Below are positions 1,373 through 64,000 of a stretch of DNA of 64,000 nucleotides, piece after piece. A program made the position numbers and the translations under genes. Below the pieces are notes generated by a model. It made no database searches, had not been told where the DNA came from, and saw nothing but the letters and a program-made list of their open reading frames with translations. Where the stretch lies: assembly GCF_009914755.1 (NCBI RefSeq), contig NC_060946.1. One strand, given 5' to 3'. Origin of the DNA: the human T2T-CHM13v2.0 reference genome, Homo sapiens. The number at the start of each line of letters is the position of its first letter. Position 1 is the stretch's first letter.

Positions 1373-3214
1373 CTGGAAGGTCAAAATGGTGTCAGCATGG
1401 GAAAGGCTGAACAAAGGAAGAGGAAGATTTTCAGGCTGCTAACTAGTGGGTGAGAGGACAGTGGGTAGGAGAGAAAGGAGAGACACACTGGACTTCCTGG
1501 TAAAAGGGAGGGTTTCAGGTCTGCTGTTAACAATCAACACCTATTGATAGAAAGGGAATCCCAAAGGGTAATTTTAAAAGCAGGAAAGTCCTTGATTCTT
1601 TTCATATAGTTCAAACATGAGTTCTGGAGCCCATCAAACCCACCACTGCCTCTTGCTAGCTATATGACATTGGAGAAATTCCTTTGTCACCTGCCCCCTC
1701 GCCCTGAGTCTCAATTTTCTAACTTCCAAGAAAGACGCAACAGAAACTCACTTCACAGGGCCTTTATGATAACTGAATGAGACAACATACTTAGGTATCT
1801 GGTCCTTGATATCTGGGAGATGCTGAGTAAATGAAAATGATCCTTTCTCCCTCTCTGATACTTAATGTGGCCCCTTACATTGGGCTGCTGGTTCTGGAGG
1901 GTCGCAGGGAAGCAGGATGGCTCATGCTGCTTTCTCCACAAGCTCTGGCACCCGGTAAGAACCAGCACAGCATGCATGGAGCACACACCATACACCAGGC
2001 TTGGTGCTAAGAGCTTTACATGCTTGATCTCATTTAACTGCCCTCAGAAGTCAGGGGATGATCCCCATTTCAGAGAACACTGAGGTTCATAAATGTCAAA
2101 TAACCTGCCTGGAGGAATCAGGTCTGAGAACAAGGTCCGTGCTCATGACCACTGGGTGGAACCCTTCTCAACATGGTACCCGTGGTCCCAGAGTCACAGG
2201 CCTTCTTAAGATGTGAAATTTGGTTAGAGATCAATTTTCTATCTCTGAAATCATCATATCCCCTCTCAATTCTTATGTGTTTATAGGAAAGGACGTGTCA
2301 ACATAGAGACTTAGGAGGTCAAAGTGAACTTCCTGATCCCCAACAGGCAGGAGTCCTGCCAAAGCCAAAATTTATGTGTCACCTTGGAAGATGATGCACC
2401 AGGAAGAATGGGGAGGAGGGAGGAGGAAAAACTGCTGATGAGGCCGACTCGCTCTTTGGGGCTTATCATATCAGCAAAGCCAGCTCTTTTGAGATGGAAG
2501 AACAAAGATGTTTCTCCTCTGTGAGGAGGTGACAGTGGTGTGCTGGGTGAAGGAGAGCAGCTTTGTCCTGGAAGGAATCTGACTTGGAAGGAGGCCCAGT
2601 TGTCCAGCAGGTACCTGTTTCCTTTCTGCTCTGGCTTCCAAAGGGCTCTCTGCAGAGCCCCTTCCCGGAGCTGCTGGCAGGAGGTCCTTTGCTTGGGGGG
2701 CGATCCATGGGGACGTCTGGAGCAGTGGGAGCCTATCTTGGGACCTGGATGGGAGCTGCTCCACCTCAGCACCCGGGTTATGAGGCACAGGGCTGGGCAC
2801 CACGAGGGCATGGGTGAAAGTGGCCTGGATTTGGATTTCAGAAGAACTGGGCTTGAGTCCTAGTTCTGCCATAAACCATGTGACTCTTAGGCAGTCACTT
2901 TATGTTTTTATTTCTTTGGCAGTAAAACTGTCATTACCTACAATATGGGAATTGTAAGGAACTACTGAGAAAACAAATCTCAAAATGTTCTGTGCAGACT
3001 CTCAAATACTGTGCAAATATCAAGCTGTTTTAAAATCCAGTCTCTGCCTTTGAGATTTTACAATCTGGTGAGCAGGTAAACACAAGTACACATAACAAGA
3101 GAACAGTTTCCATTTAGTGCTGGGTGATGGGAACAGACAGCAAATGCTTTGAGTTTGAGGTAGTGGGCTGGGGTGATCAGGGAAGGAAACACAGGGAAGG
3201 CAGACCTTGAATGT

Positions 3215-4057
3215 TTTTTTTTTTTGAGATGGAGTCTTGCTCTGTTGCCCAGGCTGGAGTGCAGTGGCGTGATCTTGGCTCACTGCAGCCTCTGCCTCCC
3301 AGGTTCCAGCAATTCTCTGCCTCAGCCTCCCAAGTAGCTGGGATTACAGGTGCCCACCACCACGCTTGGCTAATTTTTGTATTTTTAGTAGAGACGGGGT
3401 TTCACCATGTTGGCCAGGCTGGTCTTGAACTCCTGACCTCGTGATCCACCCGCCTCGGCCTCCCAAAGTGCTAGGATTACAGGTGTGAGCCACCACATCC
3501 GGCCTCGAATGGGTTTTTAAAGATGGGAAGACAAGCTGGGTCACTGGGCGCTCCCACAGGGGAAGCATGAGCCAAGGTGCGGCAGCCGCTCTACACACAA
3601 CCGGCTTTAGCCATCAGGTGCGACAGAGGCTGCACACCGGTGACAAATTAGAGAAATCCAATCTGCACGTGTGTTTTACTTGCACCACACAGTGTTTGTT
3701 TAATATCATCTGGCCACTTAAGACAGGGAGATTTAAAATGAAAAATCCAGATTTCCCATTCTTCTTTTTTTTTTTTTGAGACTGAGTCTCGCTCTGTCAC
3801 CTGGGCTGGACTGCAGTGGCACAATCTCAGCTGAATGCACCCTGTGTCTCCCAGGTTCAAGCAATTCTCCTGCCTCAGCCTCCCGAGTAGCTGAGACTAC
3901 AGGCATGCGCCACCATGCCCGGCTACTTTTTGTATTTTTAGTAGAGACAGGATATCACCATATTGGCCAGGCTGGTGTCGAACTCCTGACCTCGAGATCC
4001 GCCCGCCTGGGCCTCCCCAAGTGCTAGGATTACAGGCGTGAGCCACCGCGCCTGGCC
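3215..4057 (-). mobile_element. Two antisense Alus (~3215-3504 and ~3765-4057)
   Basis: Alu consensus with poly(T) heads. Confidence 0.9.
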
Positions 4058-4413
4058 CAGATTTCCCATTCTTTTAAAAACCAGAAGACCTGGCCACACT
4101 GGGTCCTCTTCCCCAGCCAGTACTGATCCTCTGGAGTTTCTGAGAGGGTTCATGCCACACCCACTCCATTGCCTGCTGCCTTTCCCACCTACTCCAGTTA
4201 ACTCACTCCATAACCACCTGACCTGTCAGTGTCTGGGCTCGTGATTCCTGTGTAAACAAAACCTTCTATTGGGAAGAAAGTTTTATGAAGGGAGCTGTAT
4301 GAGGGGAGACATGGGTCCCTAGACACCCTAAAGGAGAGACTGAAGTGGACCCAAGCTATAAACCCTCCCCTGTCAGCCAGCTTCTAGCTGCCACCAGGCC
4401 TACTCCTGCACAC

Positions 4414-4519
4414 CTGACATCTTTGCCCACGGTCATCGATGCAATCACTTTCTTCACTGCCTCCTTCTTCTTCTCCTTCTTGTCACTGTTGAGCTCTGCC
4501 TTCAGCTCGAAGATCTCCC
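4414..4519 (-). CDS. AP1B1: AP1B1 coding exon 3 (106 nt; [36 protein letters not shown])
   Basis: Acceptor ttccttag, donor gtgtgc; translation matches beta-1 adaptin. Confidence 0.97.
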
Positions 4520-4726
4520 CTAAGGAAAGGAGGCAAGCATGAGTGATCCCTCCCTACCCTGGCAGGGGACAATTCCCAGTATCTAACTTCCAAAAGAACC
4601 GGAGGGAGGCACGTAAGACATCCTATGCTGTTGGCTGAGGGAAGCTTCAGGCGCCTGGCCTCAGGTGGGCCAGGCAACAGTGAGGGATGACTGTTAGGAC
4701 AGGAATTAACAAGATGGAAACTTGTA

Positions 4727-5319
<593 letters not shown>

Positions 5320-5726
5320 GTTTAGAGGCCACTCTGGATTGAAGCAACAGGAACCATGGAAGCTACAAAGGTTCTGAGGAAGACAAAAGCATCAAAAACA
5401 TGATGGCAGGCTCTGCTCAGCCAGGGAGCTAAAACCCCAGTGGAAGGCAAAGCTGTCCTCAGCTACCCTCACTCAACAAAAGACCCTTAAAAGGCTCAGT
5501 GCAATAGAACCTGAGTACTTAAGGCTTGCGGGGTGAGAGCAGGATTTGTGGATTCCCACATGAAGGCCTTTCCTGTTTTCCTCAAACCTCTAATTAAAAC
5601 AGCTTGTTCAGGGTTTCACTTCCTGAGACACAAGTGGTTGGTTGCTCAGCTCTGAAAACAGGAATTCAGCTGCTCCATGAGAGCTCAAGCATGAAATCAA
5701 TTGTTCTGAAGAACTTCATGACATGA

Positions 5727-6425
<699 letters not shown>

Positions 6426-7769
6426 TAAGCCCTTCTCTAAGCCTAGTCCCATACTAACTTGTTCCCACACATTTTCTTATTTCATCCTCACAACTCTGCA
6501 TTTCCCTCCGTTTTGCAAATGGAGGCTGTGAGAGGCTCAGTAACGTATAGCCAATGCTGGTAGGGGGCAGGGCTGAAACTGAAAACCAGGTCTGCTAGCT
6601 CCAAAGCCCATGCTCTCAATCCCTATGCTTGGGCCTACCCAAGATACCCACTTTGCTTTCCTAAACCTGTTTCCTTGTCTCTTTGGCTGGAGCATTGAAC
6701 CCAGGCATGTCTGTCCACACATCTCTCTTCCCAAAAGAAATCCACTAAAAAACCCCAACCCCAAAATAAAAAAAATAGCTGGGCATGGTGGCACGTGCCT
6801 GTAGTCCCAGCTACTTGGGAGAATTGCTTGAACCCAGGAGGCTGCAGTGAGCAGAGATCTTCCCATTGCACTCCAGCCTGGGTGACAGAGACTCTGTCTC
6901 AAAAAAAAACAAACAAACAACAAAACCCACCCCTGGGACTCCAATACACTCAGCACTACGTTCACCCTGTGGCTCACCAGGCTCCACAAGACTGATCCCT
7001 GCGTACCTCTCCAATTGCTTTCTCTCTTTTTTCAATTAGTTGCCCAGGCTAGACTCGAACTCCTGGGCTCAAGCAAGTAATCCTCCCACCCAAGCCACCA
7101 CCTGGGGCGCCACTGTGCCTGGCTCTAACCTCTTCTTGTATCACCCTCCTCGGTAGCTCATGCCCACTACCTTCCTTTCCCCAAATGTGTCACAGGCACA
7201 GCACTCACTCCTTCCCCTTCCTATCCCCCATCGATCTGGCCAGCTCCACCCAGAGCTCTCCCACAGTCCCCCCTGGACCCAGTACACTTCAGTGTGGTTA
7301 CTACTCTACAGACTGTCTTCCCTGCTCAACCTTGAGCAACACCAGGTCAGAGGCTCTGTTTCTTTTCCACTGCACATGGTAGGTTCTCAGTAAAAACCAG
7401 CTAGACCAATACATGAAATGCCTGATGAGGGGCAGACTTCGGGTCCTGGATCAGCTGATCCAGCAACAGACTCTTTTCATCTGGTCGGCAGGCATGTGTC
7501 AGTATCACTTGGAAGGAAGGAGGGAGGAATAAAGGGCTGGCCAGAAAGATGCTTACAGGGTTAAAGCACATTTGTCAGCCACGACGACATCCTCCATTTC
7601 CTTAAAAGCAGAAACAACCAAAATACCCAATGATATAAGCCTAGCTTAGCAAATTTCAGTGTAGCTACTCAATAGACTTAATAGTGAGTCATTAGAATTG
7701 TTGGGAAATGTTTATGATATCAAAACATCAAATGAAAAACAGGATTAAAACGATGAAAATACATGCCTG

Positions 7770-8349
<580 letters not shown>

Positions 8350-8615
8350 TTATTTTAAGCCATGGGAAATAAAAGGGCACTTTTTTTCCCCACACTTGGA
8401 GCTAATGTTCTTCCCTTTCTGAGCTCTAAAAGGAGTGGTCAATTTCTTATATCATCAACAGTTCAATTTTCTAGATCTACCACAAGCTCTAGGCCATTCC
8501 TGCCACATGTTTCCAGGCCTTCATTCCCACCCCTACTCCCTACCGCCATAGGAGGAAAACAGAAGGGACAGGAAGAGAAAGCATAGGACAAGGCCCATTA
8601 TTAAACAAGTAATAC

Positions 8616-8652
8616 CTTTCTTGGTCGTGGTGAAATATTTTGAGTCAGTCAT
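8616..8652 (-). CDS. AP1B1: AP1B1 exon 2 coding part with start codon (MTDSKYFTTTKK-G); the exon extends to 8679 as 27 nt of 5'UTR
   Basis: ATG at 8652-8650 (ccaaaATGa), acceptor cttgcag ending at 8680, donor gtatt at 8615; 37 coding nt give phase 1 into exon 3. Confidence 0.96.
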
Positions 8653-8844
8653 TTTGGTCCCTTATCTGTAGCCAGGCTTCTGCAAGAGAGAGAAGAGAGG
8701 GGTGACTTTCAGTTATGCTCCATCCCATCTTCAGTTATGGTGCAGAGGGAGGAGAAGGATCCAGAACACATGTGGTACAGGAAAACAGCTGCTTATCTAT
8801 TTCCTGGAGAAACAAACTTTAGATCATGGCAGATTAGATTTTGA

Positions 8845-9003
<159 letters not shown>

Positions 9004-9424
9004 TGATCCCATCAAATTTTTGAATGTGCCTCTTCTAGAAATCTTTCCCACAAAAATATCTGCACAAGGATGGATGGGCTTACAGCAGCCCCTTTGTGGG
9101 ACCCACTTTGCTCAGCACTGTCCTAAATGCTTGGCACACATTAACTCATTAGGAGCCTCATCACAGCATCATCAAGGCACGATATTACCCTATACAGTCA
9201 AATAAGATTAGAAAATACCAAGCTTAAAAGGCTAGGGAGACTTCTTCTCCCCACAACTTTTCTAAGCTGCTAAAATAGTAACATGCCTGATTCATCTCTG
9301 GAAAGGGCTAGAATCTGTACTCTACAGCAGTTCCCAAATCTACCTGGCCAGTTTTCTTAAAGGCTCTCTCAGGACATCTCCTAGCGCAAAGCTCACAGCG
9401 TGAAGTACTATTGTAGACAATAGG

Positions 9425-20750
<11,326 letters not shown>

Positions 20751-49630: not shown

Positions 49631-51597
49631 TACAGTGCCTTTCTGTATTAAACTGTTCTTAAGGTGACATTGATGAGGTTGCCCTAGCTGGAAAGCCAAG
49701 GCTCTTTCATTTCTTTCTGCCCCTCTTCTTTGCCTTCCTTCAACACCAAGGAGAATGGTCCAGCAGCAGCTCAGTCCATGCCTGTCAACCGCCCACCTCC
49801 ACACTCCAGACCCAGTCCATATCCCCCAAGGCTCCTTGTGGGATTCCTCAGCAGCACCAATGCACTGACTGTCACTCTATGTTCTCCTAGGTCCCATTGA
49901 AGATGTGCAGGCGTCTGCACACGGCGGTGTGGAGGAGAATATGACATCAGATATTGTAAGATGTATTTCTTTCTCTGGAAGAGAAATGCTTTTTGTTTTT
50001 TCTGGGGCTTCTAGAATATCAAGTGAGTATCATTTTTGACTGCCATCATGATTCAGGCCTCAGTGTCATGGACTCTAGCGACCGGTCACTGGAGGTTATG
50101 ACCAGCTGAGGCCTGATTGAAAATGGCAGTCAAAGGACGGCATCACTTACAAACTGTTTGGTAGTGAGTGTATTTCTCAGTAGCAACCTTTTCTCCTTGA
50201 AAAATAATTTTGTATTTGCCAGCCAACATAGACTTGCTAAATATTCCAAAAAACCCACTGCATGTTCCACAAGCATCCTCTATGCTTTATTTGGGGGCCA
50301 GTGACTTGATCACTGTTTCACATCCGGTTTTTTATTTCACCAAGTGAATAAAGGCCTTTGCCAACAGAACCCAGCATGATCTGATCCTCATGGTGTTTTT
50401 TTTTTCTCTTATTGCAGAGAAAGTCGAAAGCCCAGCGTCAAGTCTGTACATATACTTTTTTTTTTAAACAGCTTTATTTAGACATAGTTGACATGCAAAA
50501 CAACTCACCCATTTAAAGTACGTGATTCAGCGTTTTTACTATATTTACACGGTTGTGCAACCATTGTTACAATCTCATCTTAGAACCTCTTTATTCCCCC
50601 CTCAAAGAAACCCCACTAGTAGTCACTCCTGTTTTTCCCATCTCCCATGCCCCTGGATCTAGGCAGCCACAAATGTACTTCCTGTTTCTATAGTACAGTG
50701 CTTTTCTGTATTAACCGGTTCTTAAGGTGACTATTTCGCATTGATGAAGTTGCTCTAGCTAGAAAGCCAAGGCTCTTTCATTTCCTTCTGCCCTTCTCCT
50801 TTGCCATCCTTCAACACCAAGGAGAATGGTCCAGCAACAGCTCGGTCCAAGCTTGTCAACCGCCCACCTCCACACACTCCAGCCCCGGTCCACATCCCCC
50901 AAGGCTCCTTGTGGGATTCCTCAGCAGCACCAATGCACTGACTGTCACTATGTTCTCCTAGATTTGGTCGAAGATCTCAGTGAATACCCATCTGTCCATC
51001 TTGAAGACCTCATGACACCGGAGATGGTAAGATGCATTTCTCTGTCTGGAACAGAAATGTTTTTTCTGGGCCCTCTTGCCTTATTAATGAAATGAAGATA
51101 TAAAAATCTGACCATGTATATTATAGAAGACAAATACAATTTTTTTGTTGGCTGGAACATCAAGGGAATATCATATTTGATTGCCGTCATCCACCAGGTC
51201 TTGGTTGATCATGGACTCTAGCGACTGTCACTGGAGTTTATGACCAACTGAGGCCAGTTGGATGATGGTAGTCAAAAATGAGCGCATCACTTACAAATTA
51301 TCTGGTAGTGAGCATATTTCTCAGTAGCAACTTTTTCTTCTTGAAAAATAATTTTGTATTTGCCAGCCAACAAAGACTTGCTAAATATTCCATGAAAACC
51401 CATTGCCTTTTCCACAAGCATCGTCTATGCTTCATTCGGGGGGCCAGTGACTTGATCACTGTTTGACATGTTGTTTTCTACTGTCACCAAGTGAATAATA
51501 GACCTGTGCCAACAGGGCCCAGCATGATCTAATCCTCATGGCGTTTTCCTTTCTCCTATTGTAGGCAAAGGAGAGACGCGAAGATTACCTCTGTAAG
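49631..51597 (+). repeat. Diverged tandem duplication (units ~49631-50450 and ~50693-51597), each carrying a 65-nt and a 28-nt exon
   Basis: Both units start tacagtgc(c/t)tttctgtatta and share long collinear intron sequence; an L1M fragment separates them. Confidence 0.92.
50455..50692 (-). mobile_element. L1MB-like 3' fragment between the two C22orf42-like tandem units
   Basis: cagctttatt...cacccatttaaagt...ttgtgcaaccat is typical of L1M 3' ends. Confidence 0.65.
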
Positions 51598-52050
51598 TAT
51601 ATCTATATATATATATAGATATATATATAGTAGATATATATTTGTAGATATATATATCTATATATATAGATCTATATATATGTAGATATATATCTATATA
51701 TAGATATATATATGTAGATATATAGATCTATATATAGATATATATGTAGATATATATATCTATATATATAGATATATATATTGTAGATATATATCTATAT
51801 ATATAGATATATATATTGTAGATATATATATCTATATATAGATATATATATCTATATATAGATATATATATTGTAGATATATATCTATATATAGAGAGAT
51901 ATATATTGTAGATATATATATCTACTATATATAGAGATATATATTGTAGATATATATATTGTAGATATATCTATCTATATATAGATATATATAGATATAT
52001 CTATCTATATATAGATAGATATATTGTAGATATATCTATCTATATATATA
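51597..52050. repeat. Long degenerate (TA)n/TAGA microsatellite (~450 bp)
   Basis: Direct reading; fills the last intron of the C22orf42-like gene. Confidence 0.97.
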
Positions 52051-52206
52051 TTTTTTTGAGACAAAGTCTTGTTCTTTTCCCCTAGGCTGGGTTAACATGG
52101 CACAATCTCGGCTCAATGAACCCATCAGCTCCCAGGTTTGAGGACTTCTCCGGCTTCCGCATCCCGAGTAGCTGGGATTACGGACGCCTGCCACCACACC
52201 CAGCTC
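52051..52206 (-). mobile_element. Alu right arm (antisense), exonised from 52086
   Basis: ttttttgagac...cctag|gctgg...cccgagtagctgggattac matches antisense Alu. Confidence 0.88.
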
Positions 52207-54333
52207 AAATCATTTTATGAATGCATATTTCCATCTGGGTGAAAAAAAAATCACAAGCCTCTCTCTCTTCCTACTGAGCACCTGTGAACAGTGACCTGCA
52301 GTTTGTGGCTGCAGCCAGTCCTCATGGAGCCTGCTGTTCTTACATTTCATTCTGAGGCTCACATTCTCAGTCACCATGCAGAAGAACACCCGCCCCATCC
52401 TGGGTCATTACAGAGTGGGCCAATCCATCTGCTGCATCTGAGGAGCTGGGTCCAGCTTCTACGGTGAATCCATATATTTCTGTATTTCCTGGATAAGGAA
52501 GAGGAAAGGAGCTGAGCTGGTGGAGGAAGAAGATCTAATATTAACTGACTCCTTATTTTGTACCAGGTACTGTGTTAGTTACATATTTTATCTCATGTAA
52601 TTCTTACCAAATAGTAAGGGGGTTGGGAGTGATGGAGACAATATTGATATTATCTCCATTTTAGGGTGAGAAAATGAAGGCTCAGAAAGGTTATATAACT
52701 TGCCCAAGGTCACTCAGCTGCTGAGAGCCAGGATATGAAACAGAAGTTTTACATTAGAAGCGTTCAAATTTATTTTCAATTTCCCTGCTCCATTCTGAAT
52801 AGGTATTGGCATTTACCCTTGGGCTATGTAGAACAAGTGCTTTGTCACCAAAACACCTATTGTGAACTCTTTCTGCCCTAGTAGGATTCATGCATTTTAT
52901 CTTCTTCAAAGTAAAAACCTTTAAGAGCCAGGAATCTGCCACACTGACTCTCAACTTAAATCTCAGCCACTTTTACCTTAAAATTCAGACTTGTGTAGAT
53001 ATCTCTAGAAGACTTGGTGGACTAATCTTTAAGAGTTAATTTGCATGAGGGAGGAAGAGGAGCCCACATTTGCACCAAAGACATGCCTAGAAGTCGGAGC
53101 AGGAGGGTCAGCAGGAAGTCTGTTTCTTAGAGTTCCTCCAGCCCAGTCTGAGTGGTAGAAATCAGGAACTGAAAATAAATCTGAAAGTTGTTTGAAATGA
53201 TGGTAAGACATGGGTAACATAATATATTGGGGGTTTGTGTTATAAATGAGGCTATTTTCTTATGTTTAGTATTTTGTAATTTTAGTAGAGATGGGGTTTC
53301 ACCATGTTGGCCAGGCTGGTCTGGAACTCCTGATCTCAAGTGATCCCCCCACCTCAGTTGGAGTGAGCAGGACCTGGCCTTCCTGTCTGCCGAGAGTATG
53401 GTGTGAACATCATCCTAAGTGCCTCGAGAAAGCAGCTTCCTTATTGTACCATGTCTTCCCCATCTCTTTGTGTGATGATGGCAATGACACCAGCAGAAAT
53501 TGGTGAGAGGGGCAGAACAGGAATCAGGTCCCCACTTTTCTGACACAGAGCAGACAGGACACGAGTCAGTAGGGATGGACTTCAGGGTCAGGCCAGACAC
53601 AGAGAGGTCCCAGACCTGATCTTCCTGGGTCTGGGACAGATAAGTTTTCATTTTTCACCTCTTCTGGAAGTCACCTGGGGAATGGTCCTTCAGTAGACAC
53701 TGTTGGCCAATGGTTGTCTGGCCCAGAAATATGTTTCAACTAGACGTAGCCCCCCAGTTCTTGGCCAGGGCAGTGGCAGCGCTCCCGAGTAGCAGGGGAG
53801 GTGGGGAGGGACACGAGTTCCAGGGCAGGGTGAGCTCAGCAAAGGGGTGGGGACTGACCCTAGGGTCCAGGTCATCGAATCCACAACACCTCAGTTTCCA
53901 CTTACTTTGGAGATGGTTTAACATCTTCAGTATCAAACTTGGGGTCTTCCCACAGATGGATAGAGGAACCCTGGCCATGGGTGTTTGCTGCCAGGGCAGT
54001 GACTGTCTCTTCCTCATTTGTTCTTATCCCAGAGCTCAGTCCTGGGGAAGACACATTAGGCCCCATGAATGTTTTAATGAACACACTCCAGAGATGAGTT
54101 CTAGATCACCCCTGGGCTGGTATCTAGTGCAGGTGTGGAAAGGTTTTCTTCACAGCCTGTCCAGCCTATTGAGCCCCACACTCATCCTGGAGCCTGCCCA
54201 GCTTATGATTCAGGGTCCCTGGAGATGAGGGTGAGCTCCTGAGGACAGCGAGTTGCCCCTACCTCTCTGCTCCTGCCGCTGTGATCTTGTCTAGACAGGG
54301 TGTGCAGGGCCATGCTCTTCCACTGGGTGCAAG

Positions 54334-54348
54334 AGCGCCCCCTGCTGG
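54334..54348 (-). promoter_or_regulatory. Consensus CTCF core motif (CCAGCAGGGGGCGCT)
   Basis: Near-perfect match to the CTCF consensus; occupancy not known. Confidence 0.7.
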
Positions 54349-54664
54349 AATCCCTCTGGACCTGGATATTGTCCTCATGGTCATATCCCCAGCCCCACAC
54401 AGTGACTGGCCCTTATGCAGATGCCCAGGAAGTAACCTTAAATGTATGGTAGGATCAGAGCAGCAAACGATTCTGCAGAAAAAAACACCAGGATAGGGGA
54501 GTCTTGTCTTCCTCATTTCTGGATCTCTGGAGCTGTCCCATCTAGTGTGGTTCTCAGTCATATATGTGCCTCTTCATGGTTAAATAAATTTAAATATATA
54601 CAATTAAAAATTCAGAACCTCATCAACAGAGACCATGCAATGGCCCAGCAGCCACATGTTTATA

Positions 54665-56963
54665 CAGCTCGAGTTTTCCTTCTTTCCACCCTTTGATGAG
54701 AACATGATCTTCAGGCTGGTGCTGGTTTACCAGAAATTCTCGGGGTGGTACATGTGCTAAAAGACTTTTAGTTTTGAGGGAAAGGAAAGTGGGAGATAAA
54801 TCAAGTATATAATTTTTAAGAAATGGACCTTTTATTTTAAATGTAGGGACATCAGCAGTGGACTTTATAGTCCTTGGTGCCTTCTTACTGAGAAATTTCC
54901 TTTAGCACCTATTTTTATTAGTTTTTAGACCAAAGAAAGCCAAACACCATTTTATATTTGACAATGCTTCCTGTATGTTTATACCAGATAAGCTAGATTT
55001 CACCTTTATATTAGTGTTATTAATGTTAAACAGTTTTAATAAAACTTTGTAGACATATTTATTCAACTTTTAATGTCTGACCATAAGATTTTTATAGGCT
55101 TTTTTAACCTTTTATAATTTTTGTCAAACAGCAGGTTAGCGCTTTAAGAAAAACCCGTTGTGTTTTTATTTTAATGTCCAGTTCACAGAAAAACTGGATG
55201 ATACCCCTTTAACTTTAGCCAATGTTTACACACAGAATTTTCTTTACAATTAACATTTCAAAACTTGCTTAAACCTTCAAAACTATTTTTGTAACCTTTT
55301 AATGTAGGTAAAAATTCATATTCTTATGCTTCCTTATAATCCTTTTACCAAAGGCATATTTTACTTACCTTATACACCTTGCACATAAACTGTTTCTTCA
55401 ATAGTTTTACATTCAGGAGGACTAATTAATTTAAATTATACAACATTTCTTGCATAAATTTCTTTTTCTAACACTTTTTTTCATGACTTTCACAGACAAT
55501 TCTTCGACATGCCTCAACTTTCTGACTTATTGGAAACATCCCTTTCTTTAAACAACTAGTTAGTTTATTTCAGGACAAGAATTTTCCATATAACATTCCT
55601 TTTGCACCCCCAATTTTTTCTTTTTTCGAAGATGATAACCATTCTTTTCCAAAGCAAACTTCCTTCATGTCTGTGGACTAGATTTTCTAAGGCCACAGAT
55701 TAGAAATTACCATAATACATGTTACACTGTTAACTTTTAGCAAAACAACTTTACTTTTGTTGAAAACCTTGTAAGTGTGGGATTTCAATTATCCTTTGCT
55801 ATAAATAAGACATTGCTTAGTCCAAATTAACTTAGAATTGGTATAGATGGCTTTTTTTTTCCTGGTTCTGTAAGTACTTCAAGGCTTGGCTGAGTGGCAA
55901 AGTTGAGCAGACCAATTATTAGGCAATTTTCCTAACTCTGCTTCTACAAGAGTTTTCCTCAATTACAGAATACTGATTGTGTTTTTTTTTCCTTAATCAC
56001 CTGGGAGGAACTATCTATCATCCTGTCCTGAAGGTAGTTCCTCCTAGGTCTGGTCAGACCTTTGTATGGTAATTAAGATTTAAATCCCCTGTTAGGAAAT
56101 CTGCTGGGTTAAGGGAATTTTCAGGGGTTTATGTTAAATCATCTTTTTCTAACGGAGTAGCCCCATACTTTAAGATTTTTGAGTTATGAAGCTACCTTTT
56201 TGCTTTTTTTTTTTTTTTAATTAGGATACTTCTGAACTGGTGAGGTGTGCTCACAATGAGGTTTCCTCTAAAAGTTATCTTTCTACTTTCTTCTGTCAGC
56301 AAAGCAGTTGCCGCTACAGACTGAATGCATTTGGGCCATCCGTGGGTTAGTGGGTTCACGGAATTCACATCAAATCAGAATCAAAACCAAAACCAAAGTG
56401 CAGATAAAGGCACGCCCGTTCGTCAAGCAGTTTAAACCAAGTGAAAATCAAAACCAAAACCAAAACCAAAGTGCTGATAAAGGCACGCTGTGGGTGATCA
56501 GGCCATGCTTCCACTCAAATGGAGTGGACAAGTTCCCAAGACCGGTCCTGTCAAGCAGCTCAAACCAAGTCAAAATCAAAACCAAAACCAAAGTGCTGAT
56601 AAAGGCACGCCCGTTTGCCTAGGAATTCAAACCAAGTCAAAATCAAAACCAAAACCAAAGTGCCGATAAAGGCATGCCGTGGGTGATCAGGCCACGCTTC
56701 CACTCAAATGGAGTGGGCAAGTTCCCAAGACCAGTCCTACCGTATTCCAGATATCTGGACTCCAAGCGCCAGTTCCTTCCCGGTGTTCAGCCACTGCACT
56801 GATCCTCTGCGGGGGCCTGCCATGCACTGCTCTGACGAGGCATTGCACCGGGGCAAATGCCTACCCAGGAGCATGCTCAGGAACCGCGTAGCTCAAGCTG
56901 GCCGGAGTCCCCTGCAGGGATGCTCCACAGGGCAAGCCTAAGCTGCCTAAGAGGCTGCCTCGC
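54665..56963 (-). mobile_element. ERV1 internal region (MER4-group/MER61-int-like), non-coding and truncated; no 3' LTR seen
   Basis: Contiguous with the PBS; AT-rich sequence typical of non-autonomous ERV1 internals; no gag/pol ORF in the track. Confidence 0.72.
56370..56740. repeat. Tandem repeat in the ERV leader; four copies of the aatcaaaaccaaaaccaaagtg...gataaaggca core with alternating tails
   Basis: Cores near 56379, 56446, 56573 and 56641. Confidence 0.85.
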
Positions 56964-56981
56964 TTCCCGGTCAGGGAACCA
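56964..56981 (-). other. Retroviral primer-binding site complementary to the 3' 18 nt of tRNA-Glu
   Basis: Plus strand reads TTCCCGGTCAGGGAACCA, the tRNA-Glu 3' end including CCA. Confidence 0.9.
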
Positions 56982-56986
56982 AGAAA

Positions 56987-57292
56987 TGTAGCAGGATGAG
57001 CCACAGACAAAACTCCTCAGACACCGGGTTAAACAAGGAAGAGGCTTTATTCGGCCGGGAAATCGGCAGACTTGCGTCTCAAGAACAGAACTAAGCTCCC
57101 CGAAGAAAGAGTTCCTGGCCCTTTTAAGGGCTTACAACTCTAAGGGGTCCAGGTGACAGGGTCGTGATAGACTGAGCAAGCATGGGGTACGTGACTAGGT
57201 GGGGGTAAGCAAGGCAAGTATTTCTCCACACCATTGTCTGTGATCTATAGATAGCACAAGCGATTAGGGTGGGGGTTAATCTTCAGCCTACA
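56987..57292 (-). mobile_element. ERV1 5' LTR, MER61-like (306 bp)
   Basis: TG...CA termini on the minus strand, AATAAA at 57051-57046, followed 5 nt later by a PBS. Subfamily from recall. Confidence 0.8.
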
Positions 57293-57778
57293 GGCTAAAG
57301 CAACACCAGAGAGGATGGAAGTGAGACCCCTGGAGTTGTGGTTGTGGTCAGATTGGACCTTCCCGTGGCTGCTGAGACCCTGGGGCATTGGAGACACCTG
57401 AGGATGCCTCCCTGCTCTTACTTTGTGGTCACCAAGAGATTGGGGTTACCACAACCCTATAATGTAGAGAATCCCTGTCCCCTTCCATGCCACTTCATTC
57501 TTTAGGGAAGCAAACGCCCTCCCAGGAGCTCATTCCCATTCCTGGGCCACAGTCAAAGGGAAAACCTGATCCAGACATGAATTTCCTTGGGCCTCTGCAT
57601 TTCCAGACATCCTGTCATTGCATGCATGGGGCTGACTGTCTCATCTCAGCTTCAGAAGGGCAGGCAGAGTTGTGGACACCCTGCTGAGCAAATGCCCACC
57701 GGAGTCAGGGGTTCAGCTTTCCTGCATCACTGCTGCAGGTGGGGGCTGGGGAGGGGGGCATAGGGGGTCCTAGGGAGT

Positions 57779-57806
57779 AGTTTTTGTATGAGCCTGTGTC
57801 ACAGCA
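57779..57806 (+). other. 12-bp-spacer recombination signal sequence: nonamer AGTTTTTGT, spacer ATGAGCCTGTGT, heptamer CACAGCA
   Basis: Exact 9-12-7 geometry abutting the J-like segment; lambda J segments use a 12-RSS. Confidence 0.85.
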
Positions 57807-57843
57807 CTTGATGTTTAGCAGAGAGACCCAGCTGACCGTCCTA
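57807..57843 (+). pseudogene. Orphan immunoglobulin lambda J-like segment (LMFSRETQLTVL; FGXG motif lost)
   Basis: CTTGATGTTTAGCAGAGAGACCCAGCTGACCGTCCTA resembles IGLJ segments (WVFGGGTKLTVL type) and follows an RSS. Confidence 0.85.

Positions 57844-64000
<6,157 letters not shown>

What the first reader, a model, noticed from the sequence alone, without database searches (positions are those of the whole stretch)
57779..57870. Orphan Ig-lambda J segment with its 12-RSS sits at the breakpoint of the AP1B1 duplication
Seen: nonamer AGTTTTTGT, 12-nt spacer, heptamer CACAGCA, then a 37-nt J-like sequence (LMFSRETQLTVL) ending GACCGTCCTA. The next bases (aagaaagatgcaactgaaactcac, 57844) are the start of the AP1B1 intron-3 copy (cf. 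1728). Known: IGLJ segments carry 12-RSSs and end ...GTCCTAG|gt, and I recall CACAGCA as the non-canonical heptamer of IGLJ5. Inference: a piece of the IGL J-C cluster was copied here and cut within about 1 nt of the J splice donor, so the J-C intron is replaced by AP1B1 sequence. The break is at the donor end, not the heptamer, so this is not a standard RAG joint. The retained RSS could still be a cryptic RAG target far from IGL.
Basis: partly seen in the sequence, partly recalled or inferred. Interest (0 to 1): 0.85.

Follow-up and report, generated by a model that had tools for sequence, protein, structure and literature searches.

The report
Lambda J relic beside AP1B1 copy
A dead fragment of an antibody lambda-chain joining (J) segment, left from an old stray copy of the lambda locus, sits exactly where an 8.8-kb copy of AP1B1 intron DNA was pasted in; it is a genuine evolutionary fossil and most likely inert.

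Summary
Window 57779-57843 holds a nonamer, a 12-nt spacer, a heptamer and 37 of the 38 nt of an IGLJ-like segment. The AP1B1 intron-3 copy starts at 57844, matching 1728 in the parent gene. The 549 bp at 57295-57843 match the IGLJ4 unit of the lambda locus (77%, E 1.5e-118) and a J-C orphon at chr22:32.66 Mb (85%) that still has its donor, intron and C exon.

New context changes the story. The AP1B1 copy (parent 1728-10499, 8.8 kb) also ends against IGL J4-unit DNA on its far side, just outside the window, in the opposite orientation. So AP1B1 DNA was inserted into an existing IGL orphon upstream of RFPL1. The event was complex: the J piece was inverted, 746 bp were lost, and the joints are blunt or share 3 bp.

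A partial paralog at 32.60 Mb shares the J|AP1B1 joint. Copies differ by 4-7%.

The RSS is unlikely to work. Read from the coding border, the heptamer is TGCTGTG and lacks the required CAC. The FGXG motif, the donor and the C exon are also gone. An IMGT review's table lists no IGLJ orphon.

Verdict: an ordinary, probably uncatalogued pseudogene relic at a segmental-duplication joint. Interest is low to moderate.

The parts
57295..57778 (+). Upstream flank of an IGL J unit, J4 type (non-coding)
   Evidence: Matches chr22:23332953 onward, upstream of the J before the 4th IGLC exon, at 77% and E 1.5e-118. Only this J unit aligns beyond the last ~170 bp. The indels shared with J4 and L003 are shown. 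The homology edge at 57295 is the same against L003 and against IGL.
57779..57787 (+). J-nonamer AGTTTTTGT
   Evidence: Identical to the J4 nonamer and 8 of 9 to GGTTTTTGT of J2/J3/J5. The consensus 'ggtttttgt' is quoted in PMC8950363.
57788..57799 (+). 12-nt RSS spacer ATGAGCCTGTGT
   Evidence: Identical to the spacers of J2, J3, J5, L003 and the 32.60-Mb paralog.
57800..57806 (+). J-heptamer CACAGCA (defective: coding-proximal triplet is GCA, not GTG)
   Evidence: window CACAGCA, paralog CACAGCG, L003 CACAGTG, J4 CACCGCA, J5 CACAGCA. The requirement for CAC at heptamer positions 1-3 is from PMC9723617.
57807..57843 (+). J coding remnant, 37 of 38 nt; encodes LMFSRETQLTVL; the FGXG motif is lost and the last base and splice donor are missing
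   Evidence: J coding identity is 28 of 37 to J2 and J5, 29 of 37 to J3, and 24 of 37 to J4.
57843..57844 (.). Blunt joint between the J remnant and the AP1B1 intron-3 copy
   Evidence: J homology ends at 57843 (the next J base would be G). AP1B1 homology starts at 57844, matching 1728 (the previous parent base is C). No shared bases. The same joint is present in the paralog at chr22:32600952/3.
57844..64000 (+). AP1B1 partial copy, antisense to the AP1B1 gene orientation; it continues outside the window to window-equivalent 66687
   Evidence: It matches parent 1728-10499. Substitution divergence is 4.2% over the first 3.3 kb and 7.4% over the next 5.3 kb. Only 3 copies of its first 1457 bp exist in the genome.
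1728..10499 (+). Parent segment inside AP1B1 (part of intron 3, exon 3, intron 2, exon 2, part of intron 1)
   Evidence: with the hub's exon table.
54667..57294 (.). Dispersed interspersed repeat that abuts the left end of the IGL piece (family not identified)
   Evidence: 91 matches from the 40 candidates scored of 6515 seen in the first look, mostly 77-93% identical, on many chromosomes; a chr7 copy aligns up to 57295; internal 189/67-bp tandem repeats; no long ORF.

Best explanation
Window 57295-57843 is a non-functional relic of one J unit of an old immunoglobulin-lambda J-C orphon, a stray germline copy of part of the IGL J-C cluster that lay upstream of the ancestral RFPL gene on 22q12.

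In the RFPL1 locus an 8.8-kb piece of the neighbouring AP1B1 gene (parent 1728-10499, about 56 kb away, same orientation) was inserted into that orphon in a complex germline rearrangement. Its parts were as follows.
- The 549-bp J piece was inverted.
- The 746 bp between it and the rest of the flank were lost.
- The J-C intron and C exon were removed from this locus.
- One break fell 1 nt before the 3' end of J. I take that position to be coincidental (inferred).

The joints are blunt on the J side and share 3 bp (AAG) on the far side. That fits end-joining or replicative template switching, not RAG and not splicing.

A block holding the joint (window 53347-61203, plus 52100-53357 as a separate piece about 6 kb further off) was later copied to chr22:32.60 Mb.

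Today the relic is intronic to long RFPL1 isoforms and has no working RSS heptamer, FGXG motif, donor or C exon. Its most likely activity is none.
For: Shown:
- IGL origin of 57295-57843.
- The exact start of the AP1B1 copy at 57844.
- The AP1B1 copy ends at window-equivalent 66687, matching parent 10499. It overlaps by AAG the start of a second IGL-derived piece at 66685-68919. That piece matches IGL 23332206 down to 23330893 on the opposite strand at 80-83%. Apart from Alu copies it has no other match in the genome.
- The two IGL pieces come from the same J4-type unit, 746 bp apart in the locus, and are in opposite orientation here.
- IGL J-C orphon DNA also lies upstream of, and head-to-head with, RFPL1-homologous sequence at chr22:32.66 Mb, where J, the GTGAGT donor, the intron and a C-like exon at 32664060-32664314 are present. 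At 32.82 Mb a C-like exon lies at 32820650-32820865 and the J was lost in a 5.5-kb deletion.
- No IGLC-like exon was found at chr22:29.82-29.91 Mb among 68 matches genome-wide. No other IGL-derived DNA lies in window-equivalent 30000-84000.
- The paralog at 32.60 Mb shares the joint and covers only 53347-61203 contiguously. It lacks the far-side IGL piece, so it is the derived copy.
- Only 3 of 3 genome matches exist for the AP1B1 piece: parent, window copy and paralog.

Inferred: the order of events, the mechanism, and the lack of function.
Against: - A break 1 nt from the J end is unlikely a priori, and I have no mechanism for it.
- The three AP1B1 copies do not give a clock-like tree that groups the window copy with the paralog apart from the parent. 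Over 3274 ungapped columns the private differences are window 73, parent 63, paralog 135 and all-different 4. Over the first 2 kb they are 38/40/53, which is nearly a star. Divergence from the parent is uneven, at 4.2% versus 7.4%. So gene conversion or rate differences must be invoked.
- The left joint, where the repeat ends at 57294 and the IGL flank starts at 57295, is not explained. The missing flank is not found beyond the repeat.
- No primate genomes, expression data or chromatin data were available. The age is not anchored, and a regulatory role cannot be excluded; the relic lies 446 bp upstream of the first exon of LOC102723305 at 56741-56849 on the minus strand.
- Only one human haplotype was examined.
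Confidence: 0.8

Rival explanations
1. The retained 12-RSS is a working cryptic RAG target. In developing lymphocytes it would be nicked at the heptamer/J border and could pair with 23-RSSs such as those of IGLV segments 6.5 Mb away, giving 22q12 breaks.
For: The nonamer is good: AGTTTTTGT is 8 of 9 to the J consensus and identical to J4. The 12-nt spacer is identical to those of the J segments before the 2nd and 3rd IGLC exons. Non-consensus RSSs can be cleaved off-target (PMC9723617 introduction, passage).
Against: Read from the coding border the heptamer is TGCTGTG, with positions 1-2 changed. [quoted passage not shown] The first three heptamer nucleotides are 'strictly conserved' (PMC12711392, abstract start in the listing). 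The same GCA defect is carried by the J segments before the 4th and 5th IGLC exons. From recall only, IMGT classes human IGLJ4 and IGLJ5 as ORF rather than functional, and rhesus IGLJ5 with the same heptamer is listed as F. No RIC score, assay or off-target dataset could be consulted.
Confidence: 0.03
2. The J piece is filler DNA. During the AP1B1 duplication a 549-bp fragment was captured directly from the IGL locus, or from a distant orphon, and pasted at the breakpoint. No orphon previously existed at this site.
For: Short captured fragments occur at duplication joints (general knowledge, recalled). The J piece is inverted relative to the other IGL piece, and its left end abuts unrelated repeat DNA.
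Against: It is only 77% identical to the IGL locus and 85% to the nearest orphon, whereas the AP1B1 copy is 93-96% identical to its parent. So the piece had been diverging long before the AP1B1 event. A second piece of the same J4-type unit lies at the other end of the AP1B1 copy. The other two RFPL loci carry IGL orphons in the corresponding upstream position.
Confidence: 0.1
3. The break at the J donor reflects an RNA step. A spliced or trans-spliced J-containing transcript was reverse-transcribed and joined to AP1B1-antisense sequence.
For: The break is 1 nt from the exon end. A processed IGL J-C orphon exists on chromosome 18 (PMC7555362, passage). The parent AP1B1 + strand has a pyrimidine tract and an AG at 1729-1730 just at the joint.
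Against: The RSS and 484 bp of unspliced upstream flank are retained. What follows is 8.8 kb of colinear genomic intron DNA with its Alus, and there is no poly(A). Splicing of the J donor to the AG at 1729-1730 would give a junction 2 nt different from the observed one (own reading).
Confidence: 0.02
4. The J-like sequence is a chance resemblance, or the AP1B1 homology runs through it.
For: None found.
Against: E 1.5e-118 to the IGLJ4 unit and 2.4e-176 to the 32.66-Mb orphon. Only 11 of 65 identities to the AP1B1 parent left of the joint.
Confidence: 0

Closest known systems
IGL orphons on 22q outside the main locus (the two IGLC orphons counted by IMGT; PMC7555362 section 3.4.2)
   Same: These are germline copies of IGL J-C cluster DNA displaced to 22q12, non-functional, and embedded in the RFPL duplications. 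The C-like exons at chr22:32664060 and 32820650 are most likely those two orphons. That mapping of names rests on my recall, not on a call.
   Different: The window's piece has no C exon. It is a J with its RSS only, inverted and fused to AP1B1 DNA. Table 5 of that review lists 0 IGLJ genes in orphon sets, so this J, and the J upstream of the 32.66-Mb C, appear uncatalogued there.
IGLJ4 and IGLJ5 of the main locus (the J segments before the 4th and 5th IGLC exons)
   Same: The nonamer is identical to J4, the upstream flank is of J4 type, and the heptamer is identical to J5. The GCA defect at the coding border is shared.
   Different: The FGXG motif is lost (FSRE versus FGGG or FGEG). There is no donor at all, whereas J4 and J5 have ATGAGT. 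There is no C exon, and the piece lies 6.5 Mb from the locus.
IGLJ-C/OR18, the processed J-C orphon on chromosome 18 (PMC7555362; C-like match at chr18:3554379)
   Same: It is also an IGL J sequence outside the locus.
   Different: That one is RNA-processed, with J spliced to C. The window's relic keeps the RSS and the unspliced flank and is a DNA-level product. No alignment of the window's 173-bp J region to the chr18 locus was found at E 0.01 or better.
AP1B1 (BAM22) pseudogene copies beside RFPL genes (Seroussi et al. 1999, Genome Res 9:803; recalled only, paper not held)
   Same: It is the same duplication. A partial AP1B1 copy lies upstream of RFPL1 and a second lies at 32.60 Mb.
   Different: I could not check whether that paper describes the IGL-derived DNA at the copy's ends.
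Complex duplication joints with small inverted segments, attributed to template switching or multi-break end joining (FoSTeS/MMBIR; recalled general knowledge)
   Same: A templated insertion from about 56 kb away, a short inverted segment at the breakpoint, small deletions, and 0-3 bp of microhomology.
   Different: This is an ancient, fixed event (4-7% divergence), so the mechanism can only be inferred.

Membership tests
IGLJ gene segment (functional, IMGT sense) | Nucleotide homology to IGLJ and its upstream flank | tested here: met
   77% to the J4 unit over 549 bp; 50-55 of 65 nt (RSS plus J) identical to J2-J5.
IGLJ gene segment (functional, IMGT sense) | J-RSS with nonamer and 12-nt spacer | tested here: met
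   AGTTTTTGT plus a 12-nt spacer identical to J2/J3/J5.
IGLJ gene segment (functional, IMGT sense) | Canonical heptamer with CAC at the coding border (GTG on the J strand) | tested here: not met
   CACAGCA, so the coding-proximal triplet is GCA. The requirement is from PMC9723617.
IGLJ gene segment (functional, IMGT sense) | F-G-X-G motif in the J region (motif recalled; seen as FG.G in 6 of 6 locus J segments translated) | tested here: not met
   LMFSRETQLTVL has F-S-R-E.
IGLJ gene segment (functional, IMGT sense) | Complete 38-nt J ending in a splice donor, with an IGLC exon downstream | tested here: not met
   37 nt, with the donor replaced by AP1B1 DNA; no IGLC-like exon in chr22:29.82-29.91 Mb.
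IG orphon (IG gene copy outside its major locus) | IG-gene-derived sequence located outside the major locus and unable to contribute to chain synthesis | tested here: met
   The window is at chr22:29.88 Mb and the J-C cluster at 23.316-23.346 Mb. The definition is from PMC7555362.
Functional cryptic RSS (RAG off-target site) | Heptamer positions 1-3 = CAC | tested here: not met
   TGC in the canonical reading (rule).
Functional cryptic RSS (RAG off-target site) | Passing RIC12 score, or cleavage in an assay | not testable with these tools
   No RIC model, assay or off-target dataset was available.
RAG-made joint (coding, signal or hybrid joint) | Breakpoint at the heptamer/coding border | tested here: not met
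   The break is at 57843/57844, 37 nt from the heptamer border.
Segmental duplication junction | Paralogous blocks of at least 1 kb at about 90% identity or more meeting at a sharp edge | tested here: met
   57844-61164 vs 1728-5037 at 94.3%; 56549-61203 vs chr22:32602247-32597610 at 93.0%.
Processed (retrocopied) IG orphon | Spliced J-C junction, poly(A), no flank | tested here: not met
   The RSS and 484-bp flank are kept, genomic intron DNA follows, and there is no C.

The most novel reading that the evidence does not exclude
Despite its damaged heptamer, the RSS relic is bound or nicked by RAG in early B cells. Its better-preserved sister at chr22:32662598, which has a canonical CACAGTG heptamer, could do the same. 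These sites lie on the same chromosome arm as the IGLV 23-RSSs. They would then be recurrent off-target partners, producing megabase-scale 22q deletions or inversions with end-points near AP1B1/RFPL1, in the EWSR1-NF2 neighbourhood.
Probability: 0.03. Interest if true: 0.6.

Novelty: new member of a known kind. Interest (0 to 1): 0.25.

Why it matters
IG orphons are a known class, and 22q12 is known to be a patchwork of duplications, so the finding does not change any concept. It has three modest uses.

1. It adds J-type relics to the IGL orphon inventory: this one, its copy at 32.60 Mb, and the J upstream of the 32.66-Mb C exon. The IMGT review's table gives zero IGLJ orphons.
2. It shows that an IGL J-C orphon lies just upstream of the RFPL coding region at all three RFPL loci, whole or in pieces. 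It also shows that the AP1B1 pseudogene at RFPL1 was inserted into that orphon. This gives three base-resolved joints for dating and for studying the mechanism of a primate duplication.
3. It tells annotators and users of RSS predictors that this RSS-like site descends from a true RSS but carries an inactivating heptamer change.

Tried and rejected
- **Protein-level check.** A 24-aa translation across the J (window 57799-57870) was searched against PDB chains at E up to 10. It gave 0 matches, being too short and too diverged, so this is uninformative.
- **J6 not recovered.** My spacer-based pattern found 6 J segments in the 50-kb cluster where 7 C-like exons exist. BLAST with the 173-bp J region also missed the J before the 6th C, the J before the 1st C, and the chr18 orphon. 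J6 is therefore absent from all comparisons.
- **Missing 5' flank.** I looked for IGL 23332207-23332952 or its orphon equivalent elsewhere in the window. Only short Alu-type hits appeared.
- **L008 as a second J-end break.** L008 (chr22:32676281) looked like a second case of a break at a J end. Its post-heptamer sequence is a very diverged J-like stretch followed within about 110-165 bp by interspersed repeats, so it gives no clear joint and was dropped as support.
- **The repeat at 54667-57294.** There are no ORFs of note (6 stop-free stretches of 70 aa or more, the longest 116 aa) and there are tandem repeats. The family was not identified; LTR-like is only a guess.
- **Literature.**
  - Seroussi 1999 was not held, tried by DOI, PubMed id and a guessed PMC id. 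Bonnefont 2008, PMC2495069, was not held either.
  - The searches found no paper linking RFPL or AP1B1 pseudogenes with IGL orphons. each listed papers holding both an RFPL term and an IGL term (2 and 1 respectively), judged unrelated from titles and abstract starts only.
  - The listed rows show no occurrence of AP1B1P1 or AP1B1P2.
  - These searches cover only the held open-access library.

Full report
**1. What is at the coordinates**

Reading the + strand gives:

| Element | Coordinates | Sequence |
|---|---|---|
| Nonamer | 57779-57787 | AGTTTTTGT |
| Spacer (12 nt) | 57788-57799 | ATGAGCCTGTGT |
| Heptamer | 57800-57806 | CACAGCA |
| J-like remnant (37 nt) | 57807-57843 | ends GACCGTCCTA |

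- Codons 57808-57843 translate to LMFSRETQLTVL.
- From 57844 the sequence is a copy of AP1B1 intron 3. Self-BLAST aligns 57844-61164 with 1728-5037 at 94.3% and 60981-64000 with 5096-8082 at 89.2%.
- Left of the joint the two places are unrelated, with 11 of 65 ungapped identities.

**2. Is it really IGL?**

The window's own genome (T2T-CHM13) could be searched. Window 57300-57843 gave 8 matches of 8 scored candidates:

| Match | Identity | Note |
|---|---|---|
| Itself | 100% | |
| chr22:32600953-32601496 (-) | 97% | paralog |
| chr22:32662095-32662661 (+) | 85% | locus L003 |
| chr22:23332959-23333507 (+) | 77% | covers 2-536 of 544; E 1.5e-118 |
| chr22:23322402, 23327771, 23337049 | 75-76% | last ~170 bp only |
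| chr22:32676281 | 80% | 77-bp match |

- I fetched chr22:23300001-23350000. It holds seven IGLC-like exons in a row: 23318286, 23323887, 23329253, 23333712, 23338542, 23342447 and 23345506.
- Six J segments with RSSs lie before C exons 1, 2, 3, 4, 5 and 7. The J before the 6th C was not recovered by my pattern or by BLAST.
- Naming by position, the 77% full-length match is the IGLJ4 unit.
- The window's flank shares indels with J4 and L003 that J2, J3 and J5 lack. Its nonamer equals J4's, its spacer equals that of J2/J3/J5, and its heptamer equals J5's.
- The relic keeps 37 of the 38 nt of a J; the final G and the donor are missing.
- Six of six locus J segments translate with F-G-x-G. The relic has F-S-R-E.

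**3. The joint is shared**

- The paralog at 32.60 Mb aligns with the window across 56300-59341, including the identical ...GTCCTA|AAGAAAG... joint.
- Its contiguous homology covers window 53347-61203. A further piece, 52100-53357, matches about 6 kb further off.
- Only three copies of the first 1457 bp of the AP1B1 piece exist in the genome: the parent (97%), the window copy, and this paralog (96%).
- So the joint arose once and was then copied.

**4. The sister orphon keeps what the window lost**

- L003 (chr22:32.66 Mb) matches the window only over 57295-57843. It then continues with ...GTCCTAG|GTGAGT, a J-C intron, and an IGLC-like exon at 32664060-32664314 (71% amino-acid identity over residues 20-105, no stop).
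- It has a canonical CACAGTG heptamer and a 1-nt deletion in J.
- L003 stays homologous to the IGLJ4 unit for about 180 bp further upstream than the window does. The window's left edge at 57295 is therefore a breakpoint of the window lineage.
- L003 lies head-to-head with sequence homologous to the RFPL1 coding region.
- A third locus at 32.82 Mb has an IGLC-like exon (32820650-32820865, minus strand) directly upstream of RFPL1-homologous sequence. The J there was removed by a 5.5-kb deletion relative to L003's locus.
- From recalled gene order these are the RFPL2 and RFPL3 loci, and these C exons are probably IMGT's two 22q IGLC orphons. No call gave me those names.

**5. The decisive new observation**

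- I extended the window rightwards (chr22:29886001-29906000).
- The AP1B1 copy runs to window-equivalent 66687, matching parent 10499. It is interrupted only by a young Alu at 66302-66605, which is flanked by the target-site duplication GAAAACCACACAACTCCA.
- From 66685 to 68919 the DNA matches IGL 23332206 down to 23330893 at 80-83%, on the opposite strand. It is broken up by Alus.
- Apart from Alu copies, that stretch has no other match in the genome.
- The AP1B1 homology and the IGL homology overlap by AAG at 66685-66687.
- In the lambda locus these two IGL pieces are 746 bp apart in the same J4 unit. Here they flank the 8.8-kb AP1B1 copy and point in opposite directions.
- The far-side piece has the orientation expected from the RFPL2- and RFPL3-type arrangement: moving away from the RFPL gene one meets flank, then J, then C. 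The J piece is inverted relative to it.
- No other IGL-derived DNA lies in window-equivalent 30000-84000. No IGLC-like exon lies there either.

**6. Most likely history** (inferred from sections 2-5)

1. An IGL J-C orphon lay upstream of the ancestral RFPL gene.
2. In the RFPL1 locus a complex germline rearrangement copied AP1B1 1728-10499 from about 56 kb away, in direct orientation, into the orphon.
3. The same event inverted the 549-bp flank-plus-J piece. It deleted the 746 bp between the two IGL pieces and removed the J-C intron and C exon.
4. The joints are blunt (57843/57844) or share 3 bp (66685-66687). That fits end joining or replicative template switching.
5. Neither RAG nor splicing fits. 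The break is 37 nt from the heptamer border. The RSS and flank are retained and genomic intron DNA follows. A splice to the AG at 1729-1730 would differ from the observed junction by 2 nt.
6. A block containing the joint was then copied to 32.60 Mb. That copy lacks the far-side IGL piece, so it is the derived one.

**7. Age**

- The J piece differs from L003 by about 15% and from the IGLJ4 unit by about 23%. The AP1B1 copy differs from its parent by 4.2% (138 substitutions over 3290 aligned bases) and 7.4% (384 over 5200).
- The IGL piece is therefore much older than the AP1B1 event.
- Using recalled ape and Old World monkey divergence levels, 4-7% suggests roughly 15-30 million years. This was not tested, because no primate genome was available.
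- Over 3274 columns the three AP1B1 copies give private differences of window 73, parent 63 and paralog 135.
- That is not the clock-like pattern expected if the window copy and the paralog were sisters. Gene conversion with the nearby parent, or a faster paralog, has to be assumed. This remains a weakness.

**8. Can the RSS still work?**

- The J-side consensus is quoted as nonamer ggtttttgt and heptamer cacagtg (PMC8950363, passage). The general consensus is CACAGTG-N12/23-ACAAAAACC (PMC9723617, passage).
- The bases that matter most are the three next to the coding end. On the J strand these are the last three of the heptamer.
- Here they read GCA, not GTG. In the canonical reading the heptamer is TGCTGTG.
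- PMC9723617 states that CAC is required for RAG-mediated cleavage. The abstract start of PMC12711392 calls it strictly conserved (listing).
- The paralog has CACAGCG and L003 has CACAGTG. The CpG in CACAGCG could give either neighbour by deamination (inference).
- I could not compute a RIC score or consult off-target data.
- I rate a working cryptic RSS at about 3%.

**9. Present context**

- By the hub's table the relic lies in an intron of long RFPL1 isoforms, between exons 52086-52566 and 58400-58720. The latter exon lies within the AP1B1 copy.
- It lies 446 bp upstream of the first exon of LOC102723305 (56741-56849, minus strand). That exon sits in the dispersed repeat 54667-57294.
- The window and the paralog differ by about 3% in the J piece and 4-6% in the adjacent AP1B1 copy. 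That gives no sign of constraint.

**10. Known or new?**

- The IMGT review PMC7555362 (passages and Table 5) counts two IGLV and two IGLC orphons on 22q, two IGLV on chromosome 8, and the processed IGLJ-C/OR18. It lists zero IGLJ genes in orphon sets.
- My library searches found nothing linking RFPL or AP1B1 pseudogenes to IGL orphons. Searches listed papers holding both an RFPL term and an IGL term. I judged these unrelated from titles and abstract starts only.
- The key 1999 paper on these duplications and the 2008 RFPL evolution paper were not held. Prior description cannot be excluded.
- I file it as a new member of a known kind: an IG orphon or pseudogene relic at a segmental-duplication joint.

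**11. Verdict**

The relic is real and well resolved, but it is probably inert. Interest is 0.25.

Noticed in passing
outside the window: chr22:29888685-29890919 (window-equivalent 66685-68919): A second IGL J4-unit-derived piece (matching IGL 23332206 down to 23330893, 80-83%, minus orientation, Alu-interrupted). It abuts the far end of the AP1B1 copy with a 3-bp AAG overlap. It contains a small local duplication: 67293-67419 and 67707-67857 both match IGL 23331690-23331836.
   Followed up: yes
L003 / chr22:32661908-32666526: A near-complete IGL J-C orphon. It has a J4-type flank, an RSS with canonical CACAGTG heptamer but a weak nonamer (AGATTTTCT), a J with a 1-nt deletion, an intact GTGAGT donor, a C-like exon open over 88 aa, and C7-type downstream DNA. 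It lies head-to-head with RFPL1-homologous sequence.
   Followed up: partly
L008 / chr22:32673535-32676357: A second orphon fragment of the C4-to-J5 intergenic type. It ends in a good RSS (GGTTTTTGT, 12-nt spacer, CACAATG) followed by a very diverged J-like stretch, then interspersed repeats. The stretch reads like a hydrophobic leader in one frame.
   Followed up: partly
chr22:32819815-32821132 (L019/L020): The third orphon, 92.9% identical to the 32.66-Mb one. It keeps the C-like exon and about 270 bp of the J-C intron, then joins RFPL1-homologous DNA directly. This is a 5.5-kb deletion relative to the 32.66-Mb locus, and it removed the J.
   Followed up: partly
outside the window: window-equivalent 66302-66605: A young Alu (94-96% identical to many copies) inserted into the AP1B1 copy after the duplication. 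It has an 18-bp target-site duplication, GAAAACCACACAACTCCA.
   Followed up: yes
window 54667-57294: A dispersed repeat of about 2.6 kb, mostly 77-93% identical to copies on many chromosomes, with internal 189/67-bp tandem repeats at 56371-56738 and no long ORF. Its right end coincides with the start of the IGL piece. The first exon of LOC102723305 (56741-56849, minus strand) lies inside it. The family was not identified.
   Followed up: partly
window 49631-52051: A tandem duplication with a period of about 1.06 kb (82-84% between copies) and internal palindromic matches at 51598-52051. The two 65-nt alternative RFPL1 exons (49891-49955 and 50962-51026) are one period apart.
   Followed up: no
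window 57844-61164 versus 60981 to window-equivalent 66301: Divergence of the AP1B1 copy from its parent is uneven: 4.2% then 7.4% substitutions. Between 59844 and 60843 the window copy and the parent are nearly identical while the 32.60-Mb paralog is far. This suggests gene conversion between the parent and the nearby copy.
   Followed up: partly
L012 / chr22:23333452-23333986 and 23337155-23338839: In this genome the J segments before the 4th and 5th IGLC exons both have ATGAGT instead of a GT donor. The 4th C-like exon starts only about 200 bp after its J, so the J-C intron is largely deleted. The 5th and 6th C-like exons carry stops or are split.
   Followed up: no
window 58400-58720: An annotated alternative RFPL1 exon lies inside the AP1B1 intron-3 copy, antisense to AP1B1. 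So the inserted AP1B1 DNA contributes 5' exon sequence to RFPL1 isoforms.
   Followed up: no
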